Source of the DNA: a virus
Virus record (IMG/VR): IMGVR_UViG_3300045988_163304
Location: 64,001-128,000 of that record
Length of the DNA stretch: 64,000 bases
Reading direction: 5' to 3' (one strand)
Shown: in pieces, positions 5,425 to 62,650 of the stretch
How positions within the stretch are numbered: the first letter of the stretch is position 1
How the letters are laid out: each line of letters opens with the position of its first letter
The notes under the pieces: generated by a model
Databases searched by the model: none
What the model was told of the DNA's origin: nothing
Seen by the model: only the letters and a program-made list of their open reading frames with translations
Position numbers and translations under genes: made by a program

Positions 5425-8400
5425 ATGCGACCATATTTTGGCGTACACAACCATACTCACTATTCAAATCTGCGTTTATTAGATTCTATTAATAGACCAG
5501 AAGAGTTGATTAAAACAGCAGAAAAATTAGGATTAAGTGGTATAGCAATTACTGACCACGAATGTTTATCTGCTCATATGGAAGTTAATCAATTTGCAAA
5601 AGATTTTTTAAAAGAGCATCCTGATTTTACTATTGCGTTAGGTAATGAAATCTATTTAACTGATACAAGAGATTGTGGTCAAAAGTATTATCATTTTATT
5701 CTATTGGCAAAAGATGAAATCGGTTATAAAGCATTAAAAGAATTGAGTTCAACTGCTTGGATTAATTCTTATACTGATAGAAAAATGGAACGTGTGCCAA
5801 CACTAAAATCTGAATTAAAAAATGTAATGGCACAATATAAAGGACATGTTATCGCAACAACAGCTTGCATTGGTGGTGAATTAGGTTCTAATTTATATCC
5901 AATGTATGAGGCTGAAGTAGTAGGCGATATACAAACTAAAAGCATTTATTATAATAATGTTGTTAGATTCATTGAATTTTGTATAAATGTTTTTGGTAAA
6001 GACGATTTTTATTTAGAGTGTGCTCCGTCTACCATGAAAGACCAACTTGTAGTAAATCAAAAGATTTATCAAGTAGCAAAAGCATATGATTTAAAAATGG
6101 TAGTTGGAACCGATGCTCATTATTTAACAAAGAAAGATAGACCAATTCATAAGGCTTATTTAAATTCTAAAGATGGCGAACGTGAAGTTGATTCATTCTA
6201 TGAATTCGCTTATGTAATGGATAGTGATGAAGTAGAAGAATTAATGCTACCATATATGGATACTTGGGATAAAAATAAAACTCCTCAAGAAATTATGAAT
6301 TGGATTTTTGATAATACATTAGAAATTCAAAAGAAAATAAAATTTTATTCTCTGGAACGTAAACAACAAATTCCAAGAGTAGAAGTAATTGATTATAAAA
6401 AAGGATTCATTCCAGCAGATTGGCTTGAGAAATATCCTGTTATTTGTTCACTGATTAATAGTGATGATATTCAAGAACGATATTGGGTGAATGAATGTAT
6501 TAAAGCACTGCAAGAAAAACAATTATATGAGAATGAAACATATATATCTCGACTTGAAACTGAAGCTAATGTAATTAAAAATATTGGCGAAAAACTTGAA
6601 GATTGTTTGTTTGCTTATTTTAATGCATTTAAACATTATATTGATTTGTTCTGGGAGTGCGGAAGTATTGTTGGCCCAGGTCGTGGCTCAGCAACTGGTT
6701 TTTTATCTAATTATTTATTGGGAATTACTCAGCTAGATCCAATTCGTTGGGGATTACCATATTGGCGTTTCTTGAACTTAGAGCGCGCAGAGTTGCCTGA
6801 TATTGATATCGATCTTGCGCCAAGCAAACGCCCGGCAATTTTTAGTGCTATTCGTAAAGAGCGGGGAACATTAGGTTTAATTCAAGTTGCAACGTTTGGA
6901 ACTGAAGGAACAAAGCAAGCAATTTTAACTGCTTGTCGTGGTTATAGAAGTGATGATTATCCCAATGGTATTGATGTAGATGAAGCTCAATTTATGTCTT
7001 CATTAATTCCGCAGGAACGTGGATTTTTATGGCCGATGAAAGATGTAGTAAATGGTAATCCTGATAAAGATAGAAAACCAGTAACTACATTTATCCAAAA
7101 GGTAAATCAATATCCTGGTTTATTGGATATTATTGTATACATTGAGGGCATCGTTAATAAACGTTCTTCTCATGCTTCTGGTGTTATTCTATATGGAGAA
7201 GACCCATTTGAAACCGCGTCATTTATGAAAACCCCTAGTGGTGATTTAATTACTTGTTGGGATTTGCATAAGGCTGAAGCCGCCGGAGATACTAAATATG
7301 ACTTCCTGGTAACAGAAGCATGTGATAAAATTATTCAATGTTATAATTTATTAAAAGAGGATAATCAAATTCCTGATATTGGTCTACGTGATTTTTATAA
7401 TAAATATCTTCATCCAGAAGTAATAGATACTTCTGATAAGCGCATTTGGGAACATTTGGCCGCGGGAGATATTCTTGACGTATTCCAATTTTCTACTGGT
7501 GTAGGTTTAGCTATTGCTAAAAAACTGAAACCAAAAGATCCTATGGAAATGACAGCCGCAAATGCTATGATGCGTCTAATGAGTGAAAAGGGCAAAGAAA
7601 GTCAGCAAGATAGATATTATCGAATTCAAAAAGCTGGTATTCAAGTTTTTGATAAAGAAATGAAAGATAATCATTTGCCAGACGAAATGATTGAAAAAAT
7701 GCATAAGCATTGTGATAGATATTATGGATGTTGTCCACTTCAAGAGCAAATGATGGAAATCCTTATGGATGTCGCTGGATTTACATTAGGCGAAGCAAAT
7801 AGCGCGCGTAAAGTTGTTGCTAAAAAACAAATGGCAAAAATTCCTCAATTAAAAGAGCAAGTATTTAGTAAATTTACTAATGAACATAATGCTGAATATT
7901 TTTGGGAAAATGCAATCGCTCCTCAATTGGGATATGCATTTAGTTTAAATCATTCTCTTCCTTACTCATTTGTTGCAATTCAAATGATTTATTTGGCAAT
8001 TAATTTCAATCCTATTTATTGGAATTGTGCTTGTTTGATTGTAAATAGTGGAGCATTAGAAAATGAACCAGAAGAAATGAGCGATGAAGATTATGATTAT
8101 TCTGGCGAAGAATATTGTGGTGTTTCTCCAGAAGATGTAATGGAGAATAAACCAAAAAATAAAAAAGTGGCTAGTACTGATTATGGTAAAATTGCTAAGG
8201 CGATTGGAGATATTCAGTCTGCTGGTATTAAAGTCAGTTTAGCTGATATTAATAAAGCTAAATTTGGATTCGCGCCCGACGTTGAAAACAATCAAATTCT
8301 ATTTGGTTTAAAAGGATTATTGAATGTTGGCGATGATTTGATTAATAATATTATTGCAAATCGTCCATATATATCAGTGAAAGATTTTTATTATCGCATT

Positions 8401-9378
8401 AAGCCAAGTAAGCAAGCAATGATTTCATTGATTAAAAGCGGTGCATTTGATGAAATGATGGACCGTAAAGATTTAATGATTTGGTATATTTGGGAAACAT
8501 GTGATAAAAAATCTCGTTTAACATTACAAAATTTAGCAACTTTAATTCGTTATAATTTATTACCAGAAGATAAAGATGAATATATAATTGCAAGACGAGT
8601 TTACGAATTTAATAGATATTTAAAAGCCGTTTGTAAAGATGGTAATGTGTATAAAGTCGATGAACGAGCAATTAATTTCCTAACTGAAATTGGTTGTGAC
8701 GATTTAATTGGTAGTTGTTACCTCTTAGATTCTAAAGCTTGGGATAAAGTATATCAAAAATATATGGATACATTCCGGGCTTGGATTACAGAGAATAAAG
8801 ATGTTATTTTAAATAAACTAAATAATAAAATATTTAAAGATGATTGGGATAAATATGCATCTAAATCTATTTCTGCGTGGGAGATGGAAGTTTTGTGTTT
8901 CTATTATCATGAGCATGAGTTAGCCCATGTAAATAATAGTAAATATGGATTTGTCGATTTCTTCCATCTACCAGAAGAACCAATTGTTGATAAAGTTTTT
9001 TCTAAGGGTAATAAAACGATTACTATGTATAAATTACACAAGATTTGTGGAACTTGTATTGCTAAAAATAAAACTAAATCAACAGTTACATTACTCACTA
9101 CTTCTGGAGTTGTTGAAGTTAAATTTAGAAAAGAATATTTCTCATTATTTGATAAACAAATTTCAGAAAAACAAGCTGATGGTACTAAAAAAGTAATGGA
9201 AAAAAGCTGGTTTAATCGTGGTAATATGATTGCTGTTCAAGGTATTCGTCAAGGTGATAATTTTATAGCGAAAAAATATGCCAGCTCTGGTGGTCATCAA
9301 TTATATAAAATTGATAAAATTTTAGATAATGGTGATATTGAATTAAAAGATGAAAGATACAATGGAGGATCTAATTAA
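5425..9378 (+). CDS. dnaE: DNA polymerase III alpha subunit (DnaE-type) with an N-terminal PHP domain; no internal TAG
   Basis: PHP motif GVHNHTHYS; palm active site GSATGFLSNYLLGITQLDP...PDIDIDLA; RBS AGAGGTGG. Confidence 0.85.
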   Translation: MRPYFGVHNHTHYSNLRLLDSINRPEELIKTAEKLGLSGIAITDHECLSAHMEVNQFAKDFLKEHPDFTIALGNEIYLTDTRDCGQKYYHFILLAKDEIGYKALKELSSTAWINSYTDRKMERVPTLKSELKNVMAQYKGHVIATTACIGGELGSNLYPMYEAEVVGDIQTKSIYYNNVVRFIEFCINVFGKDDFYLECAPSTMKDQLVVNQKIYQVAKAYDLKMVVGTDAHYLTKKDRPIHKAYLNSKDGEREVDSFYEFAYVMDSDEVEELMLPYMDTWDKNKTPQEIMNWIFDNTLEIQKKIKFYSLERKQQIPRVEVIDYKKGFIPADWLEKYPVICSLINSDDIQERYWVNECIKALQEKQLYENETYISRLETEANVIKNIGEKLEDCLFAYFNAFKHYIDLFWECGSIVGPGRGSATGFLSNYLLGITQLDPIRWGLPYWRFLNLERAELPDIDIDLAPSKRPAIFSAIRKERGTLGLIQVATFGTEGTKQAILTACRGYRSDDYPNGIDVDEAQFMSSLIPQERGFLWPMKDVVNGNPDKDRKPVTTFIQKVNQYPGLLDIIVYIEGIVNKRSSHASGVILYGEDPFETASFMKTPSGDLITCWDLHKAEAAGDTKYDFLVTEACDKIIQCYNLLKEDNQIPDIGLRDFYNKYLHPEVIDTSDKRIWEHLAAGDILDVFQFSTGVGLAIAKKLKPKDPMEMTAANAMMRLMSEKGKESQQDRYYRIQKAGIQVFDKEMKDNHLPDEMIEKMHKHCDRYYGCCPLQEQMMEILMDVAGFTLGEANSARKVVAKKQMAKIPQLKEQVFSKFTNEHNAEYFWENAIAPQLGYAFSLNHSLPYSFVAIQMIYLAINFNPIYWNCACLIVNSGALENEPEEMSDEDYDYSGEEYCGVSPEDVMENKPKNKKVASTDYGKIAKAIGDIQSAGIKVSLADINKAKFGFAPDVENNQILFGLKGLLNVGDDLINNIIANRPYISVKDFYYRIKPSKQAMISLIKSGAFDEMMDRKDLMIWYIWETCDKKSRLTLQNLATLIRYNLLPEDKDEYIIARRVYEFNRYLKAVCKDGNVYKVDERAINFLTEIGCDDLIGSCYLLDSKAWDKVYQKYMDTFRAWITENKDVILNKLNNKIFKDDWDKYASKSISAWEMEVLCFYYHEHELAHVNNSKYGFVDFFHLPEEPIVDKVFSKGNKTITMYKLHKICGTCIAKNKTKSTVTLLTTSGVVEVKFRKEYFSLFDKQISEKQADGTKKVMEKSWFNRGNMIAVQGIRQGDNFIAKKYASSGGHQLYKIDKILDNGDIELKDERYNGGSN

Positions 9379-9974
9379 TGTATAATATATTAGCATTAAT
9401 TGGTGAAGCGGGGAGTGGTAAGGATACCATTCTCCGTAAACTAATTGATGATACAAAACATTATTATAATGGTAAATTACCTCTACATGAAATTATAAGT
9501 TATACTTCGAGACCTCCAAGAGAAAAAGAAGTGGATGGTATTAATTACCATTTTATCTCAGCAGAAAAATTTGCTGAAATGATTTTATAGAATCAAATGT
9601 TTGAAGCTACTGTTTTTAATGAATGGTGCTATGGCACAGGAATTGAGTCAGTCAAAGAAGGCGCTATCAATGTAGGAGTATTTAATCCAGAAGGCGCAGA
9701 GATTCTATTACATGATAAACGAGTAAATTTAATTATCGTTTATATCCACGCAGATGATAAGATTCGATTAATTAGACAGTTAAATCGAGAAGTTAACCCG
9801 GATATTGATGAAATTATTCGTCGATATAAAACAGATAAACTCGATTTTGAAGATGCTGATGATTTATGTAATTGGTTATATATAAATAATACTCCTGCGG
9901 AATTAGAATATATATATAAAGATTTAGCATTGTTCCTGTCTCGATGGCCGGAGCATCTGGACACAACTTATTAA
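9378..9974 (+). CDS. guanylate-kinase-like nucleoside monophosphate kinase; one in-frame TAG at 9591
   Basis: P-loop GEAGSGKDT; TSRPPREKEVDGINYHF...YGTG matches the Gmk family. The two ORF fragments share one frame. Confidence 0.65.
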
Positions 9975-10046: not shown

Positions 10047-12296
10047 ATGTTTTATATAATTAAACGTAATGGCGATGTAATGCCATTTAACAAACAAAAA
10101 ATTATTGATGCTATTACTAAAGCATTTATTGCTGTAGATAAAAATATTTTTGAATCAGATAGTATTAATAGCATCGCTGATGAAGTAGAATATAGAGCGA
10201 GTCATTTCCCCGATGGAAGCGTTAATGTTGAAGACATCCAAAATTGGATTGAAGAAGCATTAATGGCATCAGAGCGTCCTGATATTGCTCGTGCTTATAT
10301 TCGCTATAGATATAAAAAAGAAGTTGCTCGCACTCATTCAACTGAATTTATTGCTGCAATTGGTGAAAAAATTCGTGGAGCTAATATTCAAAATCAAAAT
10401 GCTAATGTTGATGAAGCATCATTTGGTGGGCGTATGGGTGAAGCTAATAGTCTCTTAATGAAGCAATATGCTCTTGATTATATCGTATCTCCTCGTACAA
10501 AACGTAATCATGAAGAGAATATGATTTATACCCATGACCTTGACCATTATGCTGTGGGTGACCATAACTGTTTATCAATTCCATTTGATGATTTGCTTGC
10601 TAATGGATTTAATACTCGTCAAACAGATGTGCGTCCAGCAGGTTCAGTAAACACAGCATTTCAATTAGTTGCAGTTATTTTTCAATTACAATCTCTTCAG
10701 TAGTTTGGTGGAGTGAGTGCTACTCATCTTGATTGGACTATGGTTCCCTATGTTAAAAAGAGTTTTAGAAAACATTTTAAAGCATATTTAACTGATGTTG
10801 ATGATTATAGTGAAGGTATGGCTCTACAAATTATGAGTGATTGTGAGCCTATTGAAATTTCTAATAAAGAATTGCAAAGTCAATTTGGTCATCAAAATGC
10901 TTATAATTATGCTCTAAAACAGATAGAAAAAGAAATCCATCAAGCAGTTGAAGGTATGTATCATAATTTAAATACTCTTCAAAGTCGTAGTGGTAATCAA
11001 CTTCCATTTACTTCTATTAACTATGGAACTTGTACTCTTCCAGAAGGAAGAATGATTACAAAAGCCATATTAGAAGTGTCTCTTGAAGGATTAGGTAAAT
11101 TACATAAAACTTCTATTTTCCCTTGTGGAATTTTCCAATGTATGAAAGGTGTTAATAGAGAACCAGGTGACCCGAATTATGATTTATTTAAACTTGCGTT
11201 AAAATCTACTGCTAAAAGATTATATCCTAATTATGCAAATGTTGATTGGTCTGGAAATGCTGGCTATGATATTAATGACCCACGCACCTATTTTAGCACA
11301 ATGGGATGCCGAACTGCTAATGGATATGATATTAACGGTTTAGGTCAATTAAAAGATGGCCGTGGCAATATTTGTCCGGTAACTATTATTATGCCTACAC
11401 TAGCTATGATGGCAAAAGAAGCAGCTGAAAATAGTGATTTTCAATTAACTCCAAAAGCTGCTAGGATTAGAAGTTTTATGACTTTACTTGATGAAAAAAT
11501 CCATGAGGCAAAAGATCAATTAATTGAACGTTTTAATTGGATTTGCTCTCAAAGTCCGGCTTCAGCTAAATTCATGTATGAAAACAATCTAATGGCAGGT
11601 TATATTCCCGAAGAAGGAATTAGAAGTGCGCTTAAACATGGAACACTGGCTCTAGGTCAGTTAGGACTAGCAGAAACTCTACAAATTCTTATTGGCGTTG
11701 ACCACACTACTCCAGAGGGAATGGAATTAGCAAAAAAAATTGAATCCTTATTTAAACAGCGTTGTGCGGAATTTAAGGAACAATATAAATTAAACTTCGG
11801 TGTTTATTATACTCCCGCAGAAAATCTCTGTTATACTGCAATGAAGAAATTTAAGGCTAAATACGGCGAAATTCCTAATGTAAGTGATAAAGAATTTTTT
11901 ACTAATTCAATTCATGTTCCTGTATGGAAAGAAATGAGCCCATTTGATAAAATTGATATTGAGAGTCAATTAACTGGATATAGTAATGCCGGTTGTATTA
12001 CTTATGTTGAGTTAGATTCTACTGTATCTAATAACTTAACTGCTCTTGAGCAAATTGTAAATTATGCTATGGATAAAGATATTCCTTATTTTGCTGTAAA
12101 TGTTCCTAATGACACTTGTCTCAAGTGTGGATATACTGGTGAATTCAATGATAAATGTCCAGAATGTGGTAGTAAAGAAATTCAGCAACTTCGTCGTGTG
12201 ACCGGTTATTTAACTGGTAATTATAAAACTGCGTTTAATTTAGGAAAGCAAGATGAAGTTGAACATCGAGTCAAACATGTAGGAGTGATGGAATGA
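10047..12296 (+). CDS. nrdD: anaerobic ribonucleoside-triphosphate reductase NrdD; one in-frame TAG at 10704
   Basis: LNTLQSRSGNQLPFTSINYGT; C-terminal Zn ribbon CLKCGY...CPECG and glycyl-radical RVTGY. The two ORF fragments share one frame. Confidence 0.85.
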
Positions 12297-12787
12297 GATA
12301 CGCCGGGATAATTAAAAATGATATTGCTGGAGCTCCTGGAGTGTGTGTCTCATTTTTCACTCAAGGATGCGCCAGACATTGCGAGGGCTGTTAGAATCCA
12401 GAAACTTGGGATTTTAATGGCGGAAAAGAATTTACTACAGATACATTAGATGATATAGTAAATGCTCTTACTGCTAATGGTATACATCGTGATTTTTGTA
12501 TTATGGGAGGAGAACCCCTCGCCCCAGAAAATCTATTCCTTGTAGATTTAATTATTGAACATATTAAAGAAGCTCTTCCTAAAACAAAAATTTTTTTATG
12601 GACTGGATATATAATGGATGAATTGGCTATGCGCAGAGAGCCACATCTAAAAAATATTGTTGATAATATTGATTGTATTATTGACGGCCCATTTAAGATT
12701 GAACAACGAGATATCACCTTACCTATGCGTGGCTCACGCAATCAAAAAGTTTATTACGCTCCATTTGACTTATGGGAAAAAATATGA
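12293..12787 (+). CDS. nrdG: anaerobic RNR activating radical-SAM protein NrdG; one in-frame TAG at 12392
   Basis: ATGA start/stop overlap with nrdD. GCARHCEGC-[TAG]-NPETW matches the NrdG CxxxCxxC motif; C-terminus LWTGY...IIDGPF. Confidence 0.85.
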
Positions 12788-13635: not shown

Positions 13636-13886
13636 TGGAATACCTAGTAAGTACAACTGAAGTATATAGAGTTGATGATGAAGCTAGTGCTACTTCTCTA
13701 ATTGAGAAGGCTAAACATGATAGTATGTATGAACTAGCTAAGTATAGTTCTGTAAAGAAGGAAAAGAAACAGAAAGGAGAAATCATTGATGAATGGTATC
13801 AAGTTTCATTAACCAAGAAATTCAATGATGAAAAAGACCCTATTTCTGTTGTTAATATTAAATATGGGGAGCAAATTGATTTCTAA
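13635..13886 (+). CDS. hypothetical protein
   Basis: RBS GGAGAAG then ATG at 13635. Confidence 0.4.
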   Translation: MEYLVSTTEVYRVDDEASATSLIEKAKHDSMYELAKYSSVKKEKKQKGEIIDEWYQVSLTKKFNDEKDPISVVNIKYGEQIDF

Positions 13887-22488: not shown

Positions 22489-22528
22489 CATAGTAAAAAT
22501 ATACTATGTGCCTTTATTTTTTTTACCT
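22489..22528. terminator. bidirectional terminator hairpin
   Basis: aaaggcacatagt / actatgtgccttt followed by T8. Confidence 0.55.
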
Positions 22529-51322: not shown

Positions 51323-54241
51323 TTAAGATTTTGCTTTTTCTAAAACTTCAACGCGTTTCTATAAATTAGTAATAGTTATTTGTAAGTTAGTAATAGTTTT
51401 TTGTAAATCAGTAATAGTTGTTTGTAATTTTCTATCTTTATTTTGTAAATCTTTTATCTAAGAATTATAACTATCTAAAGACACATAAGTTTTACCAAGT
51501 TTAGGAATACCATTTGTAAAATATACTGGCTAAATCTCTGAGCCTATAGTATATTCAATTCCTGTATTATCAATTAACTATTGAGATGTTTTAGAAGTGT
51601 CAGACTGAGCAATTCTAGCAATACCAGAATCGGTTAATTCAAATATAATATTATCTTTAGAAATTCCATATAATCCATAAGTTGTATATGTATAATCTTT
51701 TCCATCTATTTTTACAGTTTTTAAAAAGGTCCCCATTAAAATCCCTGAGCGCTAAGTATCATTTAATTGACCAACAGTAGTAGATAACAATTTTAAATTT
51801 TCATTGTTAAAAAATATATCTTTACCTTTTATATCATTCCACATAGCAATAGGATAATTATTATTAATCATAATTATTGGCTATATCCAAAATAACTCAT
51901 TATTATTCTAGATATTTGTACCCTAAACATATAAATTTGTCTAAGCCATATTATTAGAAGTGGAATAAATAGTAGGTGGGATAATCATATTATTATCTTT
52001 ATTAAAATTCCAAAATTTAGCTCCATCACCTTTTAATGTCCACTCAACATTTAAAACAACTTCTAAAGAATTTTTATTATTTAATTTATATAATTTATAA
52101 GGAGTTTTTTCATATACCGGTTTTTTCCCAGTTATATCATAAGTAACAATAGAACACCCATCGGCACAAACGTATTTATCATTAAAAGAACACGGCAAAG
52201 TAATATAACTTCTTATAGTATTCATATTATAAGTACCTTCAGCGACAATCACTAATTTAGACATTAAAGTCGTATCACTGCTATTTAAATTTTCTTTGAA
52301 TGTAATTTCACCTTTATCAGTTAATTCAACTTTTGTTTCGCTATTTAATGAATTATAATACCATTTATAAGATAAATTTAATTTATTAAGAGCTTCCCAA
52401 GTATATCCATAAAGATTTGCTTTAATTAAATAAACATTATCTTTTAAAGGACGCACCATTTTTACTTCTTTTTCTTCTAATCCATTTTTTTTATACAAAT
52501 TTAACTATAATACACAATCGGCACCAGTAGATCCACTATTACCAAATAATAAATCAATACTATTTGAATACGTTTGATTATTAATTTCAACAGAACATTT
52601 AATAGTATTATTTTTATATAATGGATTATAGAGAGAAGCTATCTTAAATGGAATATAATATAAACCAGATTCTATTTTATTATAAATAGAAGCATTATCC
52701 CCTTCTTCAAGGATATGTTCAAAGGTATACCATGAGTCTTTTGCTATTCCTGGTTCGACTGGTAAAATCATACTATTAGTAGCTGGAATTGAATAAGTTA
52801 ATTTTATTCCTTTTGCTAAAGTTGTGTATTCTTTACTCGAATCTCGACTATTAAATTCAACAGCAATATTATGTATTTTTTCTCCATTTGAACGGGCTAA
52901 TAACTAATTATCTTGCCCATAAATATAAAATGTATTATCATTATTCTATGGAATCATATTTAAAGTATCTAATAAACCTACATTATCAATATAAGACCCA
53001 TTATCAAAAATACAAGGTTCTGAATGTGTTGTTAAAATCTCTCCAGTTAAAGGATCTTTTACCTATATTTGAACTCTTAATGGGCATTCTTTAATTTGAT
53101 CTCCTGTAGGCAAAGCATAAAAAAATTCATCATTTTTATTTTTTAACAATTCCATTGGTTGATAAATTCCATTTTTTATTGTTCCAGTTGCTTTCCATCC
53201 TCTACCATAAATACCATGATTATCCATATAATTTTTTAAATAAATAAATAAATAAATAGTAGGGTTAGTATAAGTAACAACTCGTTCTGTTTGACGATTA
53301 ATTATACGAATACCTAATGTTTTAATTCGCTCGTTTTCAGAATTAGAACCATAATATTTTAAACTTCCAATAGAATATAAATAAGCTCCTAAATTATCAG
53401 TATCATAAGAAGATAAATTTTCTTTATAATATCCCGCAATGATTTTTAAATTTCTAAATTTAATTTCAAAATCATCTGGATTATCTATTTTATCACTATC
53501 ATCTTTTTTAAATTTTCCATCTTGCCAAATATCTACTTTTATATCAGCAATAATTTTATTTTTAATATCTATATCAAAATATTGAGATACATATCCACCA
53601 GTTTTATATGGATTCATTAATAACATTTCATTATTTGAAATTAGCTAAGAAATTGTTCGTGTTTCTAACTTTTCTGTAGTCTAATCTTTATAAATTATAC
53701 TAATTTTTAATCCATATTTCCCAGAATTAAGATTCTGACTAGCCACATATAAATCCGCCGCGATATGATAAGAAAATCGTAATACAGTATAACCTATAAT
53801 ACCATTTGAATTTCCATCAATAAAACTTTGATTTGGAAGAATATTTTTCAAAGTTGTAGTTTGAGTAGAAGTGGGGTGTAAAATAAATTCATTAGGCGAA
53901 TCAATATAAGCCTATGATGCAAAAAAAGTCTTTGAATCATCTTTTCCTTCTGTTTTATAATTATTTATAACTATACCAGTAATAAGTTTTTTTGCTGTAA
54001 AGTCTCCTTGAGGTATTAATACATAAACTTCATCATCAATATTATAAACTTTTTCTTCATTATTAGAAAAAACAGCTAGTAATGCTCCTTTATAATCAAC
54101 AATATATTTATGAATACCATTTTCTAATAAAACTTCTTTTATTACACCAACTATCGTCTAGTCAAATGGTAAATTCTATAATCGAGCAGATACAATTGTG
54201 TCTACTGATCGGAATATTTTTTCATTTAATTCATTAGACAT
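51323..54241 (-). CDS. large (~970 aa) Dit-like distal tail protein with a C-terminal coiled coil; many TAGs
   Basis: The 51941, 52505 and 53063 ORFs share a frame with the start at 54241. RBS AAAGGAGAG; a 3x21-bp tandem repeat at 51366-51432 encodes the coiled coil. Confidence 0.45.
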
Positions 54242-54352: not shown

Positions 54353-57300
54353 TTAAATAGTCTTTCGACTAGCATATTGACTTGCTTCGTTCTCCATCAT
54401 TTCAAATGCTTCCATAATTTCATTACTATCAGTCACATTCGGGAAATCAGCATTAATAGAAATTTGTTGCATAAACTCTTGTGCAATTCTATCAATACCA
54501 AGAGAAGAAGGAGTTAAATTAGATAAATAATTTACAATAGTCTAAACATTTAACCCTATACTTTGTAAAATACTTGAAACATCTAAACTATCAATTAATG
54601 CAGTATCAATTGTTAATTCATTATTCTGCATCTATTCATCTATCTATTTACTCATATCTAATCTATCAAATATATCATAAGTTAAGGGGAAAGATTGTTC
54701 TGTAACATAATCAGTATTACTAAAACTTCTAGAATTATGTTGCGTGCTAATAATATTATTATCTGTCGTGGTTAACTGAGAATTTGTCTTTTGATTATAT
54801 TTACTATAATCAATATTATCCATACCAGATAATAATGCAACCATTTTATTAAGACTCGCTACAAGAGCCTCATTTCTATCAATAGCACTATTAATTTTTT
54901 TAGTATAAATATCTTCCCATCTACCAGCCGCTTCAATAACATCTTTAAAGGAATTGGTAGCGTTTTTAACTATGCCATCCATATCAGCTAATGCTTTATT
55001 AGAATCACCAGTAATCTTAATAGACCAACCAGAAGCTTCGCTAGCAAAATCGCCTTTAATACCAGCGGTTTGATTTATTTCATCCTATTTTTTACTTAAA
55101 TCATCTAATAATTTCATTGAATCATTTAATACAGTATCATGATTATCCCAGAAACGTTTAAACATTTCATCTAATGATTCATATCCACCCTTAATTGCTA
55201 AATTAGTTTTTTCAAACGTGTCTTTAATATTATCGGTATTAACCTAATAATATGAAGTAAATTTCGCTGTTGCGTCTTGGCTATTTCCAAATAACTTTTT
55301 GTATTCCCCTTCAAGATATTGCATCTTGTTTAAATACCAATCATTTAAACTAGCAATTTGCGCTTCGGCCTCTTCTTTTGTTAATTCGCCATCAGCTAAA
55401 CCTAATTCTATTTCTTTAAGTTTTTCTTTATAATCAGCCTATACTTGAAGAATATTACTTTCAAGAGTTTTTAGGTATTCTTCATTTGCTTTTTGATAAG
55501 CATTTAATTTATCTTCATATTCCTATTCAGCTTGAGCAATTTTATCTTCATCCGCGCTATATACATATCCCCAATTACCATTATTATCGCGAGTTAAACG
55601 AACAGTTTCATTAGAATTTTGAACATCTTCTAATTTCTATCTTGCTAATTCTAATTCATATTTAGATTGCAAAATTTTCAAATCATATTCACTAATTTGA
55701 GAACCATCTTTTAATTTTTTATTTAACTCATCCTGTAATTTATTCAATGCTTGTTTATGCGCGATAATATCAGTATCTTCTATAGAACCTTCAATCTAAC
55801 GTCTTAATTTATTTAATTCATAAGTTTTATCAGTATCACTTAAATATTGTTCATTAATTTCATTAGCCTATTCAATAGCTTCTTGTAATGCATCAATGGT
55901 GCCTTGAATAGGAGCAATACCTTTTTCAAATTCTTGGATAATGTTATCCATTTCTTCATCAAAGATATCTTTTGCTCTCTATAGAGCTTCTTGCCAACTA
56001 TCTAAGAAACTTTCTTCTACACCATTAATTTTATCATCAATTTCTTGTAAGGTTTTATCCCATTTCTTAATAGCTTGTTCATCGCCGTTAGCTGCTACTT
56101 TATCACGCTCAGCTTGAGCATCAGCGCGCATCTATTTCAATGCTTCTAATTCTTTTTTAGTCCCAGCTAAATTATTAATACTGTTATTCATTAATGAACG
56201 ATTTAAATTGCGAATTACTATTTTAGACTGTTCTCCCAACTACATTCCTAGTAATGATGTAATATCTTTAACACCTTCTAAAATATTTTGATAATGATCA
56301 AATAATTCAATTTGATGCTCGATATCTTCACTGAATTGATTGAAACTATCTAATACTTTTTCTTGAATTGTATTACGCATTTCAAGTAATTCTTGATTAC
56401 TAGATAATAATTCTGAACGCCAGTCTCTTAATTGCTCAATTTCTTTAGCAGTAAATCCTTTAGCTTTTAAATCAGCTTCAGACATTCCCTCTAATTCTTC
56501 TATTGAATCAATACCATGATTATTTAATAATTCCATTAATCCTTTTTGATAAGTAGTAATTTTATCAAGAGTATTCTAAGTTTTATCACCAATTAAAACT
56601 ATAGCCTCAGCCGCTGAATAAGCTTCATCTTCAATTTTACTTAATAAATAATCAAGATATTCTAATTCATCATCTTTAACAGCAATTTTAATTTCAATTT
56701 TATATTGAGTTTTTTCAAAAATTACATCAGCTAATTCAGTCTTTAAATCATATAATTTTTCTAATTGCTCTTGGCGCAAATTATTAGTTTCTTCATACTA
56801 TTCTAAAGCTTTAATAAAATCATCATAAGCATCTTCAGCGGCATCATCAGCATCTTCATTTTTACCAATAGACGAATTATATTTATCAATCTGGCGCTTC
56901 ATAATTTCATCATAATTAGTAATAGCACCAGTTTCATCAAATTCAGCGCCATAAGATGCAATTAAAGCTCTATCTTCATCCCAATATTTATTAATTTCAT
57001 CAAGATATTGATTCTATAAATCAATCATTTCATCATATTTTTCAATTTCTTGATCCATTAATTCTAATTTAGAAGTGCCAAACGCCCGCTCTTTAGCTTT
57101 CGCTAAATGCTCCATTACCTCTTCTAAATCTTCAATTTTTTGCTTAATTACATGATAACGCTCAATTTCATCTTTATATTCTTTTGGGGGAGGAGGAGTA
57201 TATGAACTTCCACCACCGCCTCCATTACCACCATCGCCACCATTTCCTCCAATGGTTCCAGAAGATTTTGTGCCTCCAGTGACTTCACCACCCATTTCTA

Positions 57301-60300
57301 AGCCACCACCAGTTACAGCCTTAACTGCTGCGGGGTATTCAATTACGTCTTCTCCATCTAAAGATTTAATAAAAACTCCGCCTGGAACATGATGGGTACC
57401 ATCAACGGTATCAGTTTCATTAGTGGCTACTAATGTATCAAAATGTTTTTTAGTCACTTGAGGTTCGACAGGATTTAACTCTAAATTAAATCCCATTTTA
57501 GCGAATTCTTTTTGTGCTTGTTCAGATGTCCATCCACTAGCTGCAATTATTTTATTACAAGCATCAATAAATCCAGCATCATTAACTTCTGCTCCGACTT
57601 CAATCGGATTGTTTTCTATGTAATTAGAAATATAATCAAAAGCATTTTGAACGTCTGATTCAACTGTTCCGGCCGCAGCACCTGCAGATTCTTCTAATTG
57701 GGCCATTGCTGAACGGGCTTTAGTATTATTAACATCTAAAACAATTTGACGCTATGCTTCCACTCTAAATTGTTGAACAGCTTTAGTATCGCCCTTCATC
57801 ATTTTAGGAATTAGTGGACCAGATTTTCTAATAAAATCTTTATTATGAGCAAGCATCTAATCAAATGTATCTTGACTTACTCCAGCTAAAGAAGCAAAAC
57901 TGTCAGAATTAGCATCTAAAAAATCCCCGAAAGATTCATATTCGGCTTCTGTTAAATCTTTATTTTTTTCTAATTTTTCAATATATTTATTTAATTCTTT
58001 ACTATTATCATTCCAAGCATCCTAAATATCTTTAATAGTACCAATATTAAGACCAGTTAATTTTCGTAATTCATTTACAGCTTCAGCGTCTCCTTCAACT
58101 GCTTTCTTAATTAAATCATAATGTTCAATAATATTATCACTATCACTAATCCATTCTTCGAAACCTTCTTTAGTCATGTCAAACATAGAAGCATATTCTT
58201 CAGAATTCTATTTTAACATATCTGACATAGCTTGAGCTTTTTCTTTTAACTAATCTTGATAATTATTATAAGCCGCTTGATAATCTTCTGTATTATCAAA
58301 AGAATCTTCGTTTGGAGTTCCCTGTTGATTTATTTGTTCAAATTCATTTACAGTTGATTGATTTTTATCCCAAGTTTCTTTTGCCTTAGAAGCATTTTCC
58401 CAAGTTGTTTTACTATCAGCTTCTATTCCTACATAATCATCAATATTAGCCACAGTATCTTCAGAGGCTAATTTATTTTCTAGCCAAGCTCGTAACTCTG
58501 AAACAGAAATATTTTTAGTCTCTTTCTAATCTTCATCTGTATATACTTCAATAGTTTTATCATTCTATAATTTAGATAAATTACCCCAAAAATTATTATC
58601 TTTATAAGTATATCCTCTCTCTTTTAAAAACTCTTGAATATTTTCATTTGAATTATTTAAAACATTAAAAGCAGTAGCAGACTAGTCGGTATAATCTGTA
58701 GCATTAGAATTACGGACTGCATCTTCAGCCATTTTATAAGCAATATCAGAGACATATTCATCACTAACTCCTGCCTCTTTTAAATCTTCTAAAATCCCTT
58801 CAGAAACCATTTTATTATACATATCATTAGTTTCTGTGTCAGCAATTCGTTGTGCCTATACAGTCAATTCTTTAATAGCATCTTGTAATTCAGTATTATT
58901 ATCAATTAAATCAATAACACTCTAATCTAAACCTAAATCTTTTAATGTATCAGAATCAATTTCTAAGTTTGGATTACGTAATTTAGCATTAATAATAGTG
59001 TCTAGATCTTTAGAAGTAATCTATTCTACATCATTATCATAATGGGTCTATCCGTGTTTAGTATAATCAGAAACAATTTCTTTTTTGCTCTAATCATATT
59101 CATATTTATCTTTAAATTTCTATTGAGCAGCTTTTGCTGATAATAAATTAGAACGTTCTTCATCCATTGAAGTACGCATAGTCTCCGCGCCAGTGTCTGT
59201 AATATACTTACGCCCCTGAGCATCAATATCCCAGTCCTATCCTTTTATTAAACCATATTTTTCAATTAAATCATCAACTTCATCATTTAACTCATTAACA
59301 GCATCTCGCCATTCTATAGTTCCATAAGTGAGATTATCAATATTTTTACGTTTATCATTTAACCCAGATAAAGTACTATTTAATGTATTTAATCTACTAT
59401 TTACATCATCTAAAGCAGTTTTAGTTTCTTCTAAATTTTTATTATTCTATTCAGCGTTTTCAGCTGCTGCTCCAGTAGCATTGTCATATATCGCCCAAGC
59501 CGCTACCAAAGCTCCTAAAGCTACAATTAAAGGCCAAATAGTAGCTAAAACTGGAACAATATTTAACCATAGACCTTTTAGAGCTGTAGAAAAAGCATTA
59601 GTTGTTACCGCCGCCTTTCCTGCTACAATAGCTTCAGCTTGCAATGCTGTAGTTTCAGTAACTACTCCTCCCGCTGCTAAAACTGCTTGGATAGCATTCT
59701 TTTTAAAAGCATCATTTAATTTTTTACTAGCTAATATATTATCTATTTTCTTTTTTTGATTCTGGGTTAATACTATTGTATTAGCCCCTATTGCTACATT
59801 TTCTAAAGAAAGTGTAAGAAATTGTTTCTAGGACTATTGTTGTAAAAAAGCATTAGCAGTACCTAATCCTCGTAAAACACTAGACACCCCAGGAACAATC
59901 ATAGAAATACTAAATAAAACAGATGTAAATTTTTCCCATCCAGAAATATCAGGATCAGATAATGTTTGCATCATAGAATTAAATGATTGTAATGCCATTG
60001 CAGCAGAACCACAAGCAGAAGCCAATGATATTATACTCTAAGTGAAAGGTATTTTATGAATTGGTTTAAAATTAATAACTGCTTGATTGAGTCCTTCTTG
60101 TGCTTCTTTTGCTTCTTTAGTAGCCTATCCCCACTATTTTAATGCTTTACTATGCGCCTAAATATCACCTTTAGCCTATTCCATTGATTTACTTGTTGAA
60201 CGACCCATTTGTTCTAAAGCATTAGCCGCATTTTTTCCTTCAACAGTAGTATTTTTTAGAACTTCTGCTAACTGCTTAAAAGCCTAACTTACTTCTTTTG

Positions 60301-62650
60301 GCTTTCCTCCATCTAATGCACTTTCAATAGCTTCTAAAGCATTTTGAAAATCTTTTGAAGATTTTGTGACTTCATCTACTGGGCCAATAAGCATATCAAT
60401 AGAAGTTCGAACCGTTTCAAAATCAATTTCACCATTTAATTTAGTATACTAAGTCCCTAATTTTTTAAGTCCTTCAATTGTTAAAGAGTATAAATCATTT
60501 CCTGATAATAAAGTTTCATTTGTTTCATGCCCAACTTCAATAAAAGTTTTATAAGTATTTGTTAATTTTTCAACTGTTTGTGCTAATTGAGACGCTGCCT
60601 GTTCCTGAATATCTAATTTATCATTCTAGAAAAAAGCTAAATCATTTCTAGCAGCGACTAAATCTGCCTAATTATTTTCAGATGGATTATTACGATATAA
60701 CTACTAAGCTTTATCTTTATTAGCTTTTAACTTCTGTAAATAACTAGTACCATAATCATAAATTTGATTAGGAGCATTTAAATCAATAGGATTAGTATCT
60801 TTATTTAATTGTTCTCGTAATTTAATTAATTTTACTGTTTCCTACTATTGTTTTTCAATAAATTGAATTTCATTTTCATAATATCTTTTTTCACTAATAG
60901 ATAAATTTTCAGATACGGTTGCTAATTTATTTTTTACTCCTAATAATTCCTAAGAATTTTTTAATTCCTATTCTTGAGCTGGAGTAAAATTAGTTCTTGT
61001 CTCTAACTATAATTTAATATTATCAGAAGTTTCTTTAGATATTTTAGCATAAACTTTATCTGCTCCACCTACTAAAATTTGAATATTATTTATTGCATTA
61101 TCTAAAGCTGGCTAAATTTTAGAGCTTAATGTCTAACCAATTAATGATAAAAATCCTAATAATAAAGGTTTAATTCCACCAATTTTATCAATAAAAGAAT
61201 CAACCCCATCAACCATATCAGATAAGAAATCTGTAAATTTAATAAAAAATTTATCATCAATTAAATCAGTATATAAAGATTCAAAAGAAGCTTTTAAACG
61301 TTTATTAGCAGCTTCCCAAGACTCTTCATAAATTTTCTATTGTTCAGTTAATGTTCCAGTAGCATTACGAGCAGTTTCGAGATTTTCTTTCATAAAATCC
61401 CAATTATCCATTAATGCCATTAATTGCGTATATTGACGAACACCAGCAACGGTTTGAGCCAATGCTACTTTAGCATCTTTAGAAATTAATGGATTACCTT
61501 CAGCATCAAATGAATTCCACTTTTCACCTAAATCACTAAGGATATCATCCATCTCTCGCAATCCGCCATCTGCTGTTTTAATAGAAACACCAACAGTTTC
61601 AAGAGCTTGAGAATATTTGCCTAATGTAGTACCATCATCAAGAGTTTTACCTAATTCTAAATCTTGAATACGAGCAAATAATGTTTTGAATGCAGTACCA
61701 ACTACATCAGCAGATTGACGAGTCGTTGCGGTTACAGTCGCTAAAGCTGAAGTAGCATATTCATAACTTAAACCTACTGTATTAGACACAGCTGCAAATT
61801 TTTCTAATCCAGCCGCAATTTCATCTGTGCTGGAAGCTGTTGCTGCACCTAATGCAGTCATAACATCAGCGTAATATTCTAATGATTGTGAGCCATCATA
61901 GAAGTTATTCCAAACAGCAGTCAATTGGTCTGATATTTTATCAGCACTTTCACCAGCGGCATTAGCCATTTTAATCGTAACAGCAGTTCTATCTTCTACT
62001 TCTTTATCTGATAAACCCTGTTGATAGTAAATCAAAGAAGCATCAGTATAATTTAATGTAGAAGTGCTTAATGCCTTTGCTGCTTTATTTGCTCTATCAG
62101 CAAATTTATCCATATAGTCAATATTATGACCAGTAACAATTCGGATATCATTTAATGAACTATTTAAATTCTAAGCGTAATGATAAGCTCCTTGCAAAGC
62201 CCCCATTACACCATGAATCATACTTGAAGAAATTTGCCATTTAACTGTATTTTTAACAGTAGTTAAAAAATCTTGTAAACGAGCATTTAATGTAATCATT
62301 GGCTAATCAGCCGCCGCTATTGATTGAGCTAATTTTATAAATGCTTGTTGTCCAGTTGTTCCCGCTTGAAGTAAACTGGTAGATAATTCAGTCACATTAG
62401 TTTTTGATTTAGCTAAACTAGCATTTAATTTACTTAAATCATAATTACCAGTTTTCTAATTATATGCTTCATTTAAATGAATAGCTAGCTCTTTAGCCGC
62501 AGTAGAAGCTGCTTTCATTTGACTGGGATCAATACCTAAATCAGTACTATATGCTACTTTAGTTAATAACTACTGCAATTCCTAAATCTGCTATTTCGCT
62601 TGAGTAGTATTCGCAGTAAAATCTAATGCAACATTTAATTGTTTTGCCAT
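54353..62650 (-). CDS. tail tape measure protein, ~2765 aa, dozens of in-frame TAGs
   Basis: All nine track ORFs here sit in frame 2 (54644 ... 61337). TP901-type TMP core (61337-62113 fragment), TM helices at 59447-59644 and a Gly-rich linker. RBS AAAGGAG; TAA at 54353. Confidence 0.75.

What the first reader, a model, noticed from the sequence alone, without database searches (positions are those of the whole stretch)
5425..62650. Extreme gene-to-gene heterogeneity in TAG usage
The polymerase (1318 codons), dUTPase and RuvC have no TAG, and nrdD has one in 750 codons. The tape measure, Dit-like, Tal-like and baseplate genes (37.5-64 kb) carry TAG in roughly 2-4% of codons. The distal fiber genes (18.9-37.5 kb) sit in between, at about 0.4% (11 TAGs in ~2720 codons of the giant fiber). 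Such skew is what is expected if suppression depends on a phage tRNA or on timed expression. It would also fit a different evolutionary history for the fiber cassettes.
Basis: partly seen in the sequence, partly recalled or inferred. Interest (0 to 1): 0.7.

Follow-up and report, generated by a model that had tools for sequence, protein, structure and literature searches.

The report
Uneven TAG-as-glutamine use across phage genes
This gut phage reads the stop codon TAG as glutamine, and how often each gene uses TAG is a conserved, gene-specific trait; this is a well-documented pattern in recoded phages, not a new phenomenon.

Summary
The window is a TAG-recoded (code 15) phage segment: all 41 called genes end in TAA or TGA, and TAG aligns with Gln in orthologues. 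In-frame TAG density varies about 5-fold between blocks (chi2 145.6, df 28, p 7.5e-18), while off-frame TAG is flat.

- Polymerase: 0 TAG in 1323 codons.
- NrdD: 1 in 749.
- Giant fibre: 14 in 2720 (not 11).
- Tape measure and baseplate block: 15-25 per 1000 (not 2-4%).

Close relatives carry a tRNA with anticodon CUA, in a tRNA array that synteny places about 40 kb left of the window.

Timing alone does not explain the skew. In relatives' late operon, the putative major capsid and major tail genes have 0 TAG, next to genes with 20-33 per 1000.

A separate history for the fibres is not supported as the cause. The same step persists in four allelic versions that are 37-68% identical.

Per-gene TAG density is conserved across the family (Spearman 0.95-0.98), although individual TAG sites turn over. 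The best reading is mutation-selection balance: near-neutral use in low-copy late genes, and purging from early, replisome and high-output genes.

This is a known kind of pattern (Borges et al.), seen here in another SPbeta-related gut phage.

The parts
638..2383 (+). RecJ-like exonuclease (g03): 5 TAG in 581 codons
   Evidence: PHROG 2484, E 5.6e-154. Counts. Orthologues keep 5, 6 and 9 TAG in three lineages.
2437..3267 (+). Secreted or lipoprotein lysozyme-like protein (g04): 0 TAG in 276 codons
   Evidence: Pfam PF18013 Phage_lysozyme2, E 5e-16. 0 TAG also in the lineage whose polymerase is 77% identical.
3564..4760 (+). Dda-like helicase (g06): 3 TAG in 398 codons
   Evidence: PHROG 325, E 3e-84; counts.
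4757..5362 (+). Unknown protein g07: 5 TAG in 201 codons (24.9 per 1000), the TAG-rich outlier of the replication block
   Evidence: No family hit. Its composition predicts 5.1 TAG.
5407..9378 (+). DNA polymerase III alpha, YorL type (g08): 0 TAG in 1323 codons, 45 CAA/CAG
   Evidence: PHROG 405, E 1.9e-218. 39.7% identical over 99% of its length to SPbeta-type phage polymerases. 0-1 TAG in every TAG-using lineage. The composition model predicts 8.2 TAG; P(0) about 1e-4.
9378..9974 (+). Guanylate kinase (g09): 1 TAG in 198 codons
   Evidence: PHROG 1815.
10047..12296 (+). Anaerobic ribonucleotide reductase NrdD (g10): 1 TAG (codon 219) in 749 codons
   Evidence: PHROG 487, E 6.8e-195. Alleles in near-identical genomes carry 0, 1 or 5 TAG.
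12293..12787 (+). NrdG activase (g11): 1 TAG in 164 codons
   Evidence: PHROG 626.
13886..14443 (+). dUTPase (g15): 0 TAG in 185 codons
   Evidence: PHROG 135.
14443..14952 (+). RuvC-like resolvase (g16): 0 TAG in 169 codons
   Evidence: PHROG 159.
18104..18517 (+). Holin (g23): 1 TAG in 137 codons, preceded by a near-consensus promoter-like site at 18046-18074
   Evidence: PHROG 13712, E 3.9e-33.
18941..21049 (-). Fibre-like protein g25: 5 TAG in 702 codons
   Evidence: No Pfam or PHROG hit.
22523..23512 (-). g27, which shares a C-terminal domain with g25: 6 TAG in 329 codons
   Evidence: Flanked by terminator-like hairpins at 22477-22520 and 23589-23631.
24276..26210 (-). Fibre-block protein g29: 1 TAG in 644 codons
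   Evidence: weak hit to PHROG 25888.
26540..34702 (-). Giant fibre-like protein g31: 14 TAG in 2720 codons (5.1 per 1000)
   Evidence: A single ORF in all relatives, 88-98% identical, with 14-17 TAG. 10 of 14 sites are shared at 88-91% identity; the rest align to CAA, CAG and other codons.
34844..36475 (-). Fibre protein g32: 1 TAG in 543 codons
   Evidence: Alleles 37-47% identical carry 1-2 TAG (one in most), at non-homologous positions.
36514..37449 (-). g33: 1 TAG in 311 codons; first gene of the TAG-poor block
37527..37553 (-). Terminator-like hairpin exactly at the border between the TAG-rich and TAG-poor late genes
   Evidence: 11-pair stem followed by a T run. Pattern match only; function not shown.
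37567..41040 (-). g34, large baseplate-region protein: 20 TAG in 1157 codons
   Evidence: Alleles 39-51% identical carry 15-21 TAG.
41040..41381 (-). g35, small conserved protein: 1 TAG in 113 codons
41399..44005 (-). g36, tail/baseplate protein: 13 TAG in 868 codons
   Evidence: PHROG 32343 and PHROG 1887 'tail protein'.
44002..51300 (-). g37, 2432-aa tail protein: 60 TAG (24.7 per 1000)
   Evidence: No family hit was obtained; it was never scanned against PHROGs or Pfam. Alleles 38-53% identical have 17-26 per 1000.
51323..54241 (-). g38, 972-aa tail protein: 18 TAG
   Evidence: no family hit.
54353..62650 (-). Tape measure protein g39: 59 TAG in 2765 codons; the first TAG is at codon 20
   Evidence: Pfam PF10145 PhageMin_Tail, E 2.8e-22.
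62766..63290 (-). g40, chaperone-position protein: 1 TAG in 174 codons
   Evidence: PHROG 30570.
63352..63999 (-). g41 (5' end lies beyond the window): 9 TAG in 215 codons (41.9 per 1000)
   Evidence: The full-length orthologue in L202 has 363 aa and 8 TAG.

Best explanation
The window belongs to a roughly 197 kb human-gut phage distantly related to SPbeta. It translates TAG as glutamine (code 15), most likely through its own amber-suppressor tRNA.

In this reading TAG is an ordinary third Gln codon, and its frequency in each gene is set by mutation-selection balance.
- AT-biased mutation pushes CAG to TAG.
- In low-copy late genes (tape measure, baseplate proteins; terminase, portal and connector-position genes in relatives) nothing opposes this. 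TAG has nearly reached parity with CAA.
- TAG is purged from genes that must be made before, or independently of, efficient suppression. These are the early GC-rich block and the replisome.
- TAG is also purged from genes that need very high translational output. These are the putative major capsid and major tail proteins, their neighbours and SSB.
- The fibre genes sit under intermediate purging.

Shown: the recoding, the skew, its frame specificity, its conservation gene by gene, TAG site turnover, and the tRNA(CUA) in close relatives.

Inferred: that selection acts through timing and translational yield, and that the window's own genome carries the tRNA.
For: Recoding: (TAG faces Gln 115 of 326 times and 57 of 85 times in the two identity bands, then K/E/H/R or K/L).

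Frame-specific skew.

Near-neutral level in the late block: CAA:CAG:TAG = 220:23:181, so TAG/CAA is 0.82. The replication block has 143:13:19 and the fibre block 131:13:34. On a CAA-CAG-TAG chain of transitions, equal GC-to-AT bias predicts TAG about equal to CAA (my inference).

Conservation of per-gene density:
- Across 61 dereplicated head-operon loci, Spearman is 0.95-0.98 between lineage groups.
- Only about 0-40% of TAG sites (roughly a fifth overall) are shared at 48-73% identity.

Polymerase: 0-1 TAG in all TAG-using lineages, while RecJ keeps 5-9.

High-output genes:
- The putative capsid protein (Pfam YonB on record; distant hits annotated major capsid protein) has 0-1 TAG family-wide.
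- So does the putative major tail protein (hits annotated major tail or tail tube).
- In the L202 operon, these two genes and two neighbours total 1 TAG versus 37 CAR. The rest of the operon has 66 versus 102; Fisher p 1.7e-6.

Codon-bias link: TAG share tracks codon and composition measures (TTR share of Leu codons rho 0.59; GC at codon positions 1+2 rho -0.63). A module term remains after these (likelihood ratio 31, p 3e-6).

Gradient: the early 50% GC block has 1 TAG in 2851 codons and prefers CAG over CAA.

Suppressor tRNA in relatives.
Against: - No expression or protein-abundance data exist. Capsid and tail-tube identities rest on synteny, weak homology and other people's annotations; the local Pfam and the PDB sequence search gave nothing.
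- Fibre copy number is unknown, so their low TAG is not really explained.
- Composition covariates alone explain most of the variance (likelihood ratio 160.6 on 3 df, against 141.8 for the module classes). Selection on TAG itself is hard to separate from general codon and amino-acid selection.
- Borges et al. report a tail tube family preferentially recoded in crAss-like phages, which is the opposite sign.
- About 30-40 kb of the relatives' genome was not seen, so release factors or other code-change genes are not excluded.
- The tRNA(CUA) was found in relatives, not in the window's own contig.
Confidence: 0.6

Rival explanations
1. Pure temporal gate (the published model). Early genes are written in standard code. 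A phage suppressor tRNA then switches the code, and in-frame TAGs exist to block late structural and lysis genes until that switch.
For: - There is a genome-wide gradient, from 0.35 TAG per 1000 codons in the GC-rich small-gene block to about 20 per 1000 in tape measure and baseplate genes.
- The core replisome genes (DnaB-like, primase-like, polymerase) have 0 TAG.
- In TAG-rich genes the first TAG falls within the first 20-37 codons.
- A tRNA(CUA) sits in a TAG-free region ahead of the long rightward gene array in relatives.
- This is the model of Borges et al..
Against: - Within one late operon the putative capsid, tail-tube and neighbouring genes have 0 TAG, between genes with 20-33 per 1000.
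- The fibre genes are TAG-poor.
- RecJ, helicase, NrdD, NrdG and guanylate kinase all need read-through.
- Lysis genes are not enriched: holin 1/137, lysozyme-like g04 0/276, endolysin of relatives 3/612.
- The TAG share in late genes does not exceed the neutral expectation.
Confidence: 0.2
2. Different ancestry. The TAG-poor blocks (fibres, replication genes) were acquired recently from standard-code relatives and have not had time to accumulate TAG.
For: - The family contains fully TAG-free lineages and lineages whose replication module is TAG-free while the late genes are recoded.
- The genomes are strongly mosaic. Late genes are 37-68% identical between genomes whose polymerases are 98-99% identical.
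- NrdD alleles with 0, 1 and 5 TAG coexist in near-identical genomes.
- A terminator-like hairpin marks the border between the two late blocks.
Against: - The same low density recurs in four fibre-block versions as diverged as 37-57% (p 1e-5 to 2e-11 in each).
- The polymerase is TAG-free across lineages 57-98% identical, while neighbouring genes keep their TAGs.
- TAG sites in the giant fibre gene turn over, yet density stays at 5-6 per 1000.
- GC at third codon positions in fibre genes (0.09-0.22) matches the late genes, so there is no sign of foreign codon usage.
Confidence: 0.08
3. Composition only. There is no selection on TAG as such. Genes under weak constraint drift towards AT-rich codons and amino acids, and TAG simply rides along with TTA and similar codons.
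For: - TAG share correlates with the TTR share of Leu codons (rho 0.59) and with GC at codon positions 1+2 (rho -0.63).
- These covariates explain more deviance than the module classes do.
- The TTA/CTA ratio rises 4.5, 11.8, 22.2 across the three blocks, in parallel with TAG/CAG 1.5, 2.6, 7.9.
Against: - A module term stays significant after the covariates (likelihood ratio 31, p 3e-6).
- The polymerase (8.2 predicted, 0 observed), the DnaB-like and primase-like genes and g26 fall well below prediction.
- Off-frame TAG density is flat across blocks.
- CAA/CAG is constant (about 10) across blocks, while TAG/CAG varies 5-fold.
Confidence: 0.12

Closest known systems
Alternatively coded gut phage clades of Borges et al. 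(bioRxiv 10.1101/2021.08.26.457843; roughly 200 kb Jade and Sapphire clades, Firmicutes and Bacteroidetes hosts)
   Same: - TAG is read as Gln.
- The genome is low in GC.
- Suppressor tRNAs are present in some members.
- Only part of the genes use the recoded codon; structural genes are recoded and replication genes vary.
- Standard-code close relatives exist.
- The paper explicitly proposes that selection enriches or depletes recoded stops in specific gene families.
   Different: - Membership of a named clade was not tested (no terminase phylogeny).
- Lysis genes are not preferentially recoded here.
- The putative major capsid and tail proteins avoid TAG completely, whereas that paper reports a preferentially recoded tail tube family in crAss-like phages.
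- The tRNA array is about 20 kb from the endolysin in relatives, not directly upstream of it.
phAss-1 / proposed Phassvirus (Babkin et al. 2023, PMC10607447; GenBank OQ749652)
   Same: - Human gut origin.
- TAG read as Gln.
- 36 tRNAs including three tRNA-Sup(CTA).
- TAG in 28% of ORFs, mostly virion genes plus some DNA-processing genes.
- Its capsid-position protein is 50% identical to that of this phage group.
   Different: - phAss-1 is 136 kb against roughly 197 kb here.
- Its polymerase was not among the 15 best tblastn hits listed, and no record reached 60% identity.
- That paper makes no per-gene density analysis.
SPbeta-like phages of Bacillus, Enterococcus and Staphylococcus (standard code)
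   Same: - YorL-type DNA polymerase III alpha: 39-40% identity over 99% of its length.
- YonB, YonD and YonG Pfam families on record for the head-operon proteins.
- Capsid- and tail-position proteins are about 40% identical to Enterococcus phages EF1, H1 and VRE9.
   Different: - Those phages use the standard code.
- There is no DNA-level similarity.
crAss-like and Lak phages using code 15
   Same: - The same reassignment, with suppressor tRNAs.
- Late genes are recoded and early genes are largely standard.
- Proteomic proof of code 15 exists for crAss-like phages (PMC9523058, abstract).
   Different: These are unrelated lineages with Bacteroidetes hosts. No homology was tested or expected.

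Membership tests
Genetic code 15 phage (TAG read as Gln) | In-frame TAG inside conserved genes that become full length when TAG is read through | tested here: met
   Long-ORF coding doubles. RecJ, NrdD, the helicase and the tape measure protein match their family profiles end to end with Q at TAG.
Genetic code 15 phage (TAG read as Gln) | TAG aligns preferentially with Gln in homologues | tested here: met
   Gln faces TAG in 57 of 85 cases at 70-95% identity and 115 of 326 below 70%, followed by K/L in the first band and K/E/H/R in the second. Recent changes are mostly TAG/CAG. The counts are not phylogenetically independent.
Genetic code 15 phage (TAG read as Gln) | TAG is not used as a terminator | tested here: met
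   31 TAA and 10 TGA stops among 41 genes.
Genetic code 15 phage (TAG read as Gln) | Phage-encoded tRNA with anticodon CUA | tested here: inconclusive
   None in the window. Present in L312, which is about 94% DNA-identical to a window-clade contig, and in L303/L304. The window's own genome outside the window was not available.
Genetic code 15 phage (TAG read as Gln) | Peptides with Gln at TAG positions | not testable with these tools
   This needs proteomics.
Recoding as a late-gene and lysis timer (Borges model) | Early genes compatible with the standard code | tested here: met
   In relatives, the GC-rich small-gene block has 1 TAG in 2851 codons. DnaB-like, primase-like and polymerase genes have 0 TAG. 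Several replication-module genes do carry TAG, however.
Recoding as a late-gene and lysis timer (Borges model) | Structural genes as a class use the recoded codon | tested here: inconclusive
   True for the tape measure, baseplate, terminase-position and portal-position genes. Not true for the putative capsid and tail-tube genes and their neighbours, and weak for the fibres.
Recoding as a late-gene and lysis timer (Borges model) | Lysis genes preferentially recoded | tested here: not met
   Holin 1/137, lysozyme-like g04 0/276, relatives' endolysin 3/612 and the adjacent membrane protein 2/123. All are at or below the genome mean.
SPbeta-related phage group | YorL-type polymerase and Yon-type head proteins | tested here: met
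   (39.7% identity, 99% coverage). (PF27364 YonB, PF27290 YonD_N and PF27269 YonG_N on record for relatives' proteins). The relationship is distant; no taxonomic placement was attempted.

The most novel reading that the evidence does not exclude
TAG density could be an evolved translational attenuator that sets protein stoichiometry inside a single late operon. Genes for proteins needed in hundreds of copies would carry none. Genes for proteins needed in a few copies would carry 20-35 per 1000. This per-gene setting would be maintained across the whole phage family despite turnover of individual sites. That would make recoded stop codons a graded dosage device rather than only an on/off timer.
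Probability: 0.2. Interest if true: 0.6.

Novelty: new member of a known kind. Interest (0 to 1): 0.35.

Why it matters
For annotation, this window and its many gut relatives must be called with code 15, otherwise half the coding sequence is lost.

For biology, the family offers a natural series of lineages: standard-code, sparsely recoded and fully recoded. Per-gene TAG densities are strikingly conserved across them. This makes two ideas directly testable: recoded stops as timers versus recoded stops as weakly deleterious codons tolerated only in low-output genes.

The heterogeneity as such is already in the literature.

Tried and rejected
- GenBank phages, near-DNA search with 10 kb of the window: no match.
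- Exact look-up of the polymerase: not on record.
- The search for related loci with the 2432-aa g37: pattern hits, but none confirmed. In hindsight its alleles are only 38-53% identical.
- PDB sequence search of the capsid-position and tail-position proteins: nothing useful.
- Local Pfam on the fibre, baseplate, capsid-position and tail-position proteins: no family.
- Sigma-70 promoter scan: fewer or no more hits than in shuffles, so uninformative apart from one site before the holin.
- ARAGORN on about 5 Mb of loci around the replication and structural modules: no tRNA. The array was reached only by walking about 40 kb left of the window through exact-protein look-ups.
- Protein conservation as the driver: rejected. 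Terminase-position, portal-position and H04 proteins are conserved yet TAG-rich, while the tail-position protein is only 58-62% conserved yet TAG-free.
- Local trinucleotide composition: rejected.
- Strand or replication asymmetry for the fibre versus baseplate contrast: rejected, because both blocks are adjacent on the same strand.
- Not searched: release factors, tRNA synthetases or anti-RF1 genes in the unseen roughly 30-40 kb.

Full report
**What the window is**

The 64 kb window has 29.5% GC and no tRNA or Rfam RNA. Under the standard code, long ORFs cover 10,062 aa. Reading TAG as sense raises this to 20,166 aa. Reading TGA as sense changes little.

I called 41 non-overlapping genes with TAA/TGA stops. 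31 end in TAA and 10 in TGA.

The + strand genes from 0.6 to 15.5 kb are replication and nucleotide-metabolism genes:
- RecJ, a Dda-like helicase and a YorL-type DNA polymerase III alpha.
- Guanylate kinase, NrdD, NrdG, dUTPase and RuvC.

A holin lies at 18104-18517.

The - strand from 18.9 to 64 kb holds fibre-like genes, then large tail/baseplate proteins and a 2765-aa tape measure protein (PF10145).

The polymerase is 39-40% identical over its full length to SPbeta-type phage polymerases. There is no DNA-level match in GenBank phages.

**Is TAG glutamine?**

I aligned orthologous replication genes from 43 related IMG/VR loci, scoring TAG as X. The codon opposite TAG is most often CAA or CAG:
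- 57 of 85 cases at 70-95% identity.
- 115 of 326 cases below 70% identity.

In the lower band the next most frequent partners are K, E, H and R, the usual Gln neighbours; in the 70-95% band they are K and L. Between genomes about 98% identical, TAG differences are mostly TAG/CAG. These counts are not phylogenetically independent, but the signal is the standard one for code 15.

**The observation**

Two figures need correction:
- The giant fibre gene has 14 TAG in 2720 codons, not 11.
- The genes from 37.5 to 64 kb have mostly 15-25 TAG per 1000 codons, not 2-4%. The small g35 and g40 are lower. Only the truncated g41 reaches 4.2%.

Block rates are 3.9 (replication), 5.7 (fibres) and 20.8 (tape measure/baseplate) per 1000 codons. 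Heterogeneity among the 29 genes of at least 150 codons gives chi2 145.6, df 28, p 7.5e-18.

The late block differs from both others at p about 1e-15 to 1e-17. The fibre block does not differ from the replication block as a whole (p 0.21).

Off-frame TAG density is flat across blocks, so the skew is a property of the reading frame, not of local composition.

30 of the 41 genes carry at least one TAG.

**Relatives and the rest of the genome**

Related contigs of about 160-201 kb are abundant in IMG/VR and in ENA human-gut assemblies. One ENA contig is 97.9% identical to window positions 26517-47449.

I walked outward from the window through relatives whose polymerase is 98-99% identical.

To the left of the window:
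- Primase-like, DnaB-like, ATPase and SSB-like genes.
- Ligase, gyrase/topoisomerase subunits and RNase H.
- An endolysin (CHAP + Amidase_2, 3 TAG in 612 codons) followed by a small membrane protein.
- Nucleotide-metabolism genes.
- DUF2828 and MVP-shoulder proteins, and then a tRNA array.

To the right of the window:
- The head-tail operon.
- A 1.9 kb non-coding stretch with repeated palindromes.
- A block of about 15 kb of small + strand genes with 50% GC.

The tRNA array holds at least 35 tRNAs in some relatives.

A tRNA with anticodon CUA is present in three loci:
- L312 93-166. This contig is about 94% DNA-identical to a window-clade contig. The tRNA scores 55 bits against Rfam tRNA, whose gathering score is 29.
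- L303 8597-8667, one base after tRNA-Gln(CUG) and sharing its anticodon arm.
- L303 14132-14225, which is identical to the copy in L304.

The L312 tRNA has a U1-U72 mismatch. It also has G73, a feature I recall as tRNA-Gln-like; this was not tested.

By synteny the array lies roughly 34-45 kb left of window position 1. This is an inference for the window's own genome.

About 30-40 kb of the relatives' genome was not seen. Release factors therefore cannot be excluded.

**Does timing explain the skew?**

A gradient exists in TAG per 1000 codons:

| Gene set | TAG per 1000 codons | Note |
|---|---|---|
| GC-rich small-gene block (relatives) | 0.35 | 1 TAG in 2851 codons; CAG preferred over CAA |
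| Next small-gene array (relatives) | 2.2 | |
| Nucleotide metabolism and lysis stretch (relatives) | 2.5 | |
| Window replication block | 3.9 | |
| Fibre block | 5.7 | |
| Tape measure/baseplate block | 20.8 | |

This fits the published model of early standard-code genes and late recoded genes.

Three facts do not fit a pure timer.

First, several replication-module genes cannot be completed without read-through: RecJ (5 TAG), helicase (3), g07 (5), NrdD, NrdG and guanylate kinase (1 each).

Second, TAG counts alternate sharply inside the co-directional head-tail operon of the closest relative:

| Gene (by position) | Length (aa) | TAG |
|---|---|---|
| Terminase position | 577 | 10 |
| Portal position | 487 | 8 |
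| Scaffold/protease position | 530 | 3 |
| Unnamed | 310 | 1 |
| Capsid position | 368 | 0 |
| Unnamed | 195 | 0 |
| Unnamed | 195 | 4 |
| Unnamed | 99 | 3 |
| Unnamed | 384 | 8 |
| Unnamed | 200 | 2 |
| Unnamed | 242 | 8 |
| Tail-tube position | 358 | 0 |
| g41 orthologue | 363 | 8 |
| g40 orthologue | 174 | 1 |
| Tape measure | 2757 | 56 |

The evidence for the two key identities is indirect:
- The 368-aa protein carries the Pfam family YonB on record. It has distant hits annotated major capsid protein.
- The 358-aa protein hits genes annotated major tail or tail tube protein.
- Neither identity is proven.

Third, lysis genes are not enriched in TAG.

**Does ancestry explain it?**

The genomes are mosaic. 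In contigs whose polymerase is 98-99% identical to the window's, protein identity to the window varies widely:
- g34: 39-44%.
- g37: 38-53%.
- g38: 47-50%.
- g36: 61-68%.
- g32: 37-44%.
- g33: 55-80%.
- Giant fibre g31: 88-95%.
- g40: 97-100%.

Yet in each of four allelic versions the baseplate genes have 17-20 TAG per 1000 and the fibre genes 4.5-6.4. The Fisher p value is 1e-5 to 2e-11 in each version.

The one or two TAGs of each g32 allele sit at non-homologous positions. In g31, 10 of 14 sites are shared at 88-91% identity, and the others face CAA, CAG and other codons.

The polymerase has 0-1 TAG in TAG-using lineages at 98%, 77% and 57% identity. RecJ keeps 5, 6 and 9 in the same lineages.

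A recent import from a standard-code donor therefore does not account for the low-TAG genes.

The family does contain lineages with no TAG at all. It also contains lineages where only a few head genes have begun to carry TAG, most consistently the 242-aa gene before the tail-tube gene.

**Family-wide conservation**

In 61 dereplicated head-operon loci, per-gene TAG density correlates at Spearman 0.95-0.98 between three lineage groups. At 48-73% identity only about 0-40% of individual TAG sites (roughly a fifth overall) are shared.

Protein conservation is not the driver:
- Terminase-position, portal-position and H04 proteins are 71-91% conserved and TAG-rich.
- The tail-position protein is 58-62% conserved and TAG-free.

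**Neutral benchmark and covariates**

The Gln codons form a chain of transitions, CAA-CAG-TAG, because CAA to TAA is lethal. With equal GC-to-AT bias at both steps, neutral equilibrium predicts TAG about equal to CAA (my inference).
- The late block has CAA:CAG:TAG = 220:23:181, so TAG/CAA is 0.82.
- TAG/CAA is 0.13 in the replication block and 0.26 in the fibre block.
- CAA/CAG is constant at about 10 in all three blocks.

The TAG-rich genes therefore look unconstrained rather than enriched. The TAG-poor genes look purged.

I fitted a binomial model over 59 genes (window plus close relatives).
- TAG share of Gln codons is predicted by the TTR share of Leu codons and by GC at codon positions 1+2 (likelihood ratio 160.6, 3 df).
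- A module term remains significant after these (likelihood ratio 31, p 3e-6).
- Non-fibre late genes sit about 1 logit above replication genes. Fibres do not differ from replication genes.
- The polymerase is the clearest outlier: 8.2 TAG predicted, 0 observed, P about 1e-4.

The TAG-free capsid-position, tail-position, SSB-like and Band_7 genes also show the highest C-ending codon use and the most CTN Leu codons. That is the usual mark of translational selection.

**Verdict**

- The mechanism 'phage suppressor tRNA' is supported in close relatives.
- 'Timed expression' is part of the picture but cannot be the whole.
- 'Different history of the fibre cassettes' is not supported as the cause.
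- The best-supported reading is gene-specific purifying selection against a fully functional but costly or time-dependent Gln codon.

Heterogeneous use of recoded stops, with structural genes recoded and replication genes variable, is already described for several gut phage clades and for a related phage, phAss-1. This is therefore another member of a known kind.

The conserved per-gene hierarchy and the TAG-free capsid and tail genes are a modest addition. I could not find them stated in the papers I read.

Noticed in passing
L202 1-1900 (relative contig IMGVR_UViG_3300045988_141926; by synteny about 25-27 kb beyond window end); also L200, L201, L203-L205, L234, L288 10762-12200: A roughly 1.9 kb GC-rich (0.43-0.51) stretch with no credible ORF under codes 11, 15 or 4, no Rfam hit and no tRNA. 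It carries at least 7 copies of the 20-bp palindrome ATTGTTAAATTTTTAACAAT. It lies next to an AbrB/MazE-like gene, between the head operon and the GC-rich small-gene block. It could be an operator array, an origin or a partition site.
   Followed up: partly
L292 2803-16762 and L288 12202-20056 (relatives, right of the head operon): A roughly 15 kb block of 28 small + strand genes at 50% GC in a 30% GC genome. It has 1 TAG in 2851 codons and prefers CAG over CAA (56 versus 23). Its codon usage looks host-like, so these are presumably the earliest genes.
   Followed up: partly
L044-L052, L280-L287 versus window 34844-54241: Extreme mosaicism. Genomes with 98-99% identical polymerases have baseplate and tail proteins (g32, g34, g36, g37, g38) only 37-68% identical, in at least four allelic sets. 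The giant fibre g31 between them stays 88-98% identical.
   Followed up: partly
L303 1-17153, L301 449-16067, L296 1-3250, L312 93-4992: A tRNA array of up to 37 genes, interspersed with paralogous 116-aa proteins of unknown function (305 homologues in the protein collection). L303 also has a tRNA with anticodon UCA (opal-suppressor-like) although the family recodes TAG.
   Followed up: partly
L296 5707-9893 (also L295, L305-L312): Directly after the tRNA array lie a DUF2828/DUF7788 protein (about 510 aa) and an 829-aa protein with a major-vault-protein shoulder domain. Both are GC-rich (0.44-0.47) and TAG-free. They may form an RNA-associated pair.
   Followed up: no
L292 18858-19421 (- strand): A 187-aa helix-turn-helix protein with 7 TAG (37 per 1000), in a small AT-rich leftward cluster at the end of the GC-rich block. 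It is a heavily recoded putative regulator.
   Followed up: no
window 18941-19400 and 22523-22950 (- strand): g25 and g27 end in a shared C-terminal domain of about 130 aa (GAVWNDYAE[FY]RE ... VNGR[VI]WI[KR][VI]). It matches no Pfam or PHROG family and may be a fibre assembly or chaperone module.
   Followed up: no
window 10047-12296 versus L001-L003, L010, L018, L025: NrdD alleles in genomes with 98-99% identical polymerases carry 0, 1 or 5 TAG and are 749 or 756 aa long. This suggests allele exchange inside the replication module.
   Followed up: no
L207, L243, L256 and similar head-operon loci: Sparsely recoded lineages carry only a handful of TAGs, most consistently in the 242-aa gene just before the tail-tube gene. 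These may be early stages of recoding.
   Followed up: partly
window 22477-22520 and 23589-23631: Two long, perfect, bidirectional terminator-like hairpins (18-19 pairs flanked by A and T runs) bracket g27, setting it apart as its own unit between convergent genes.
   Followed up: no
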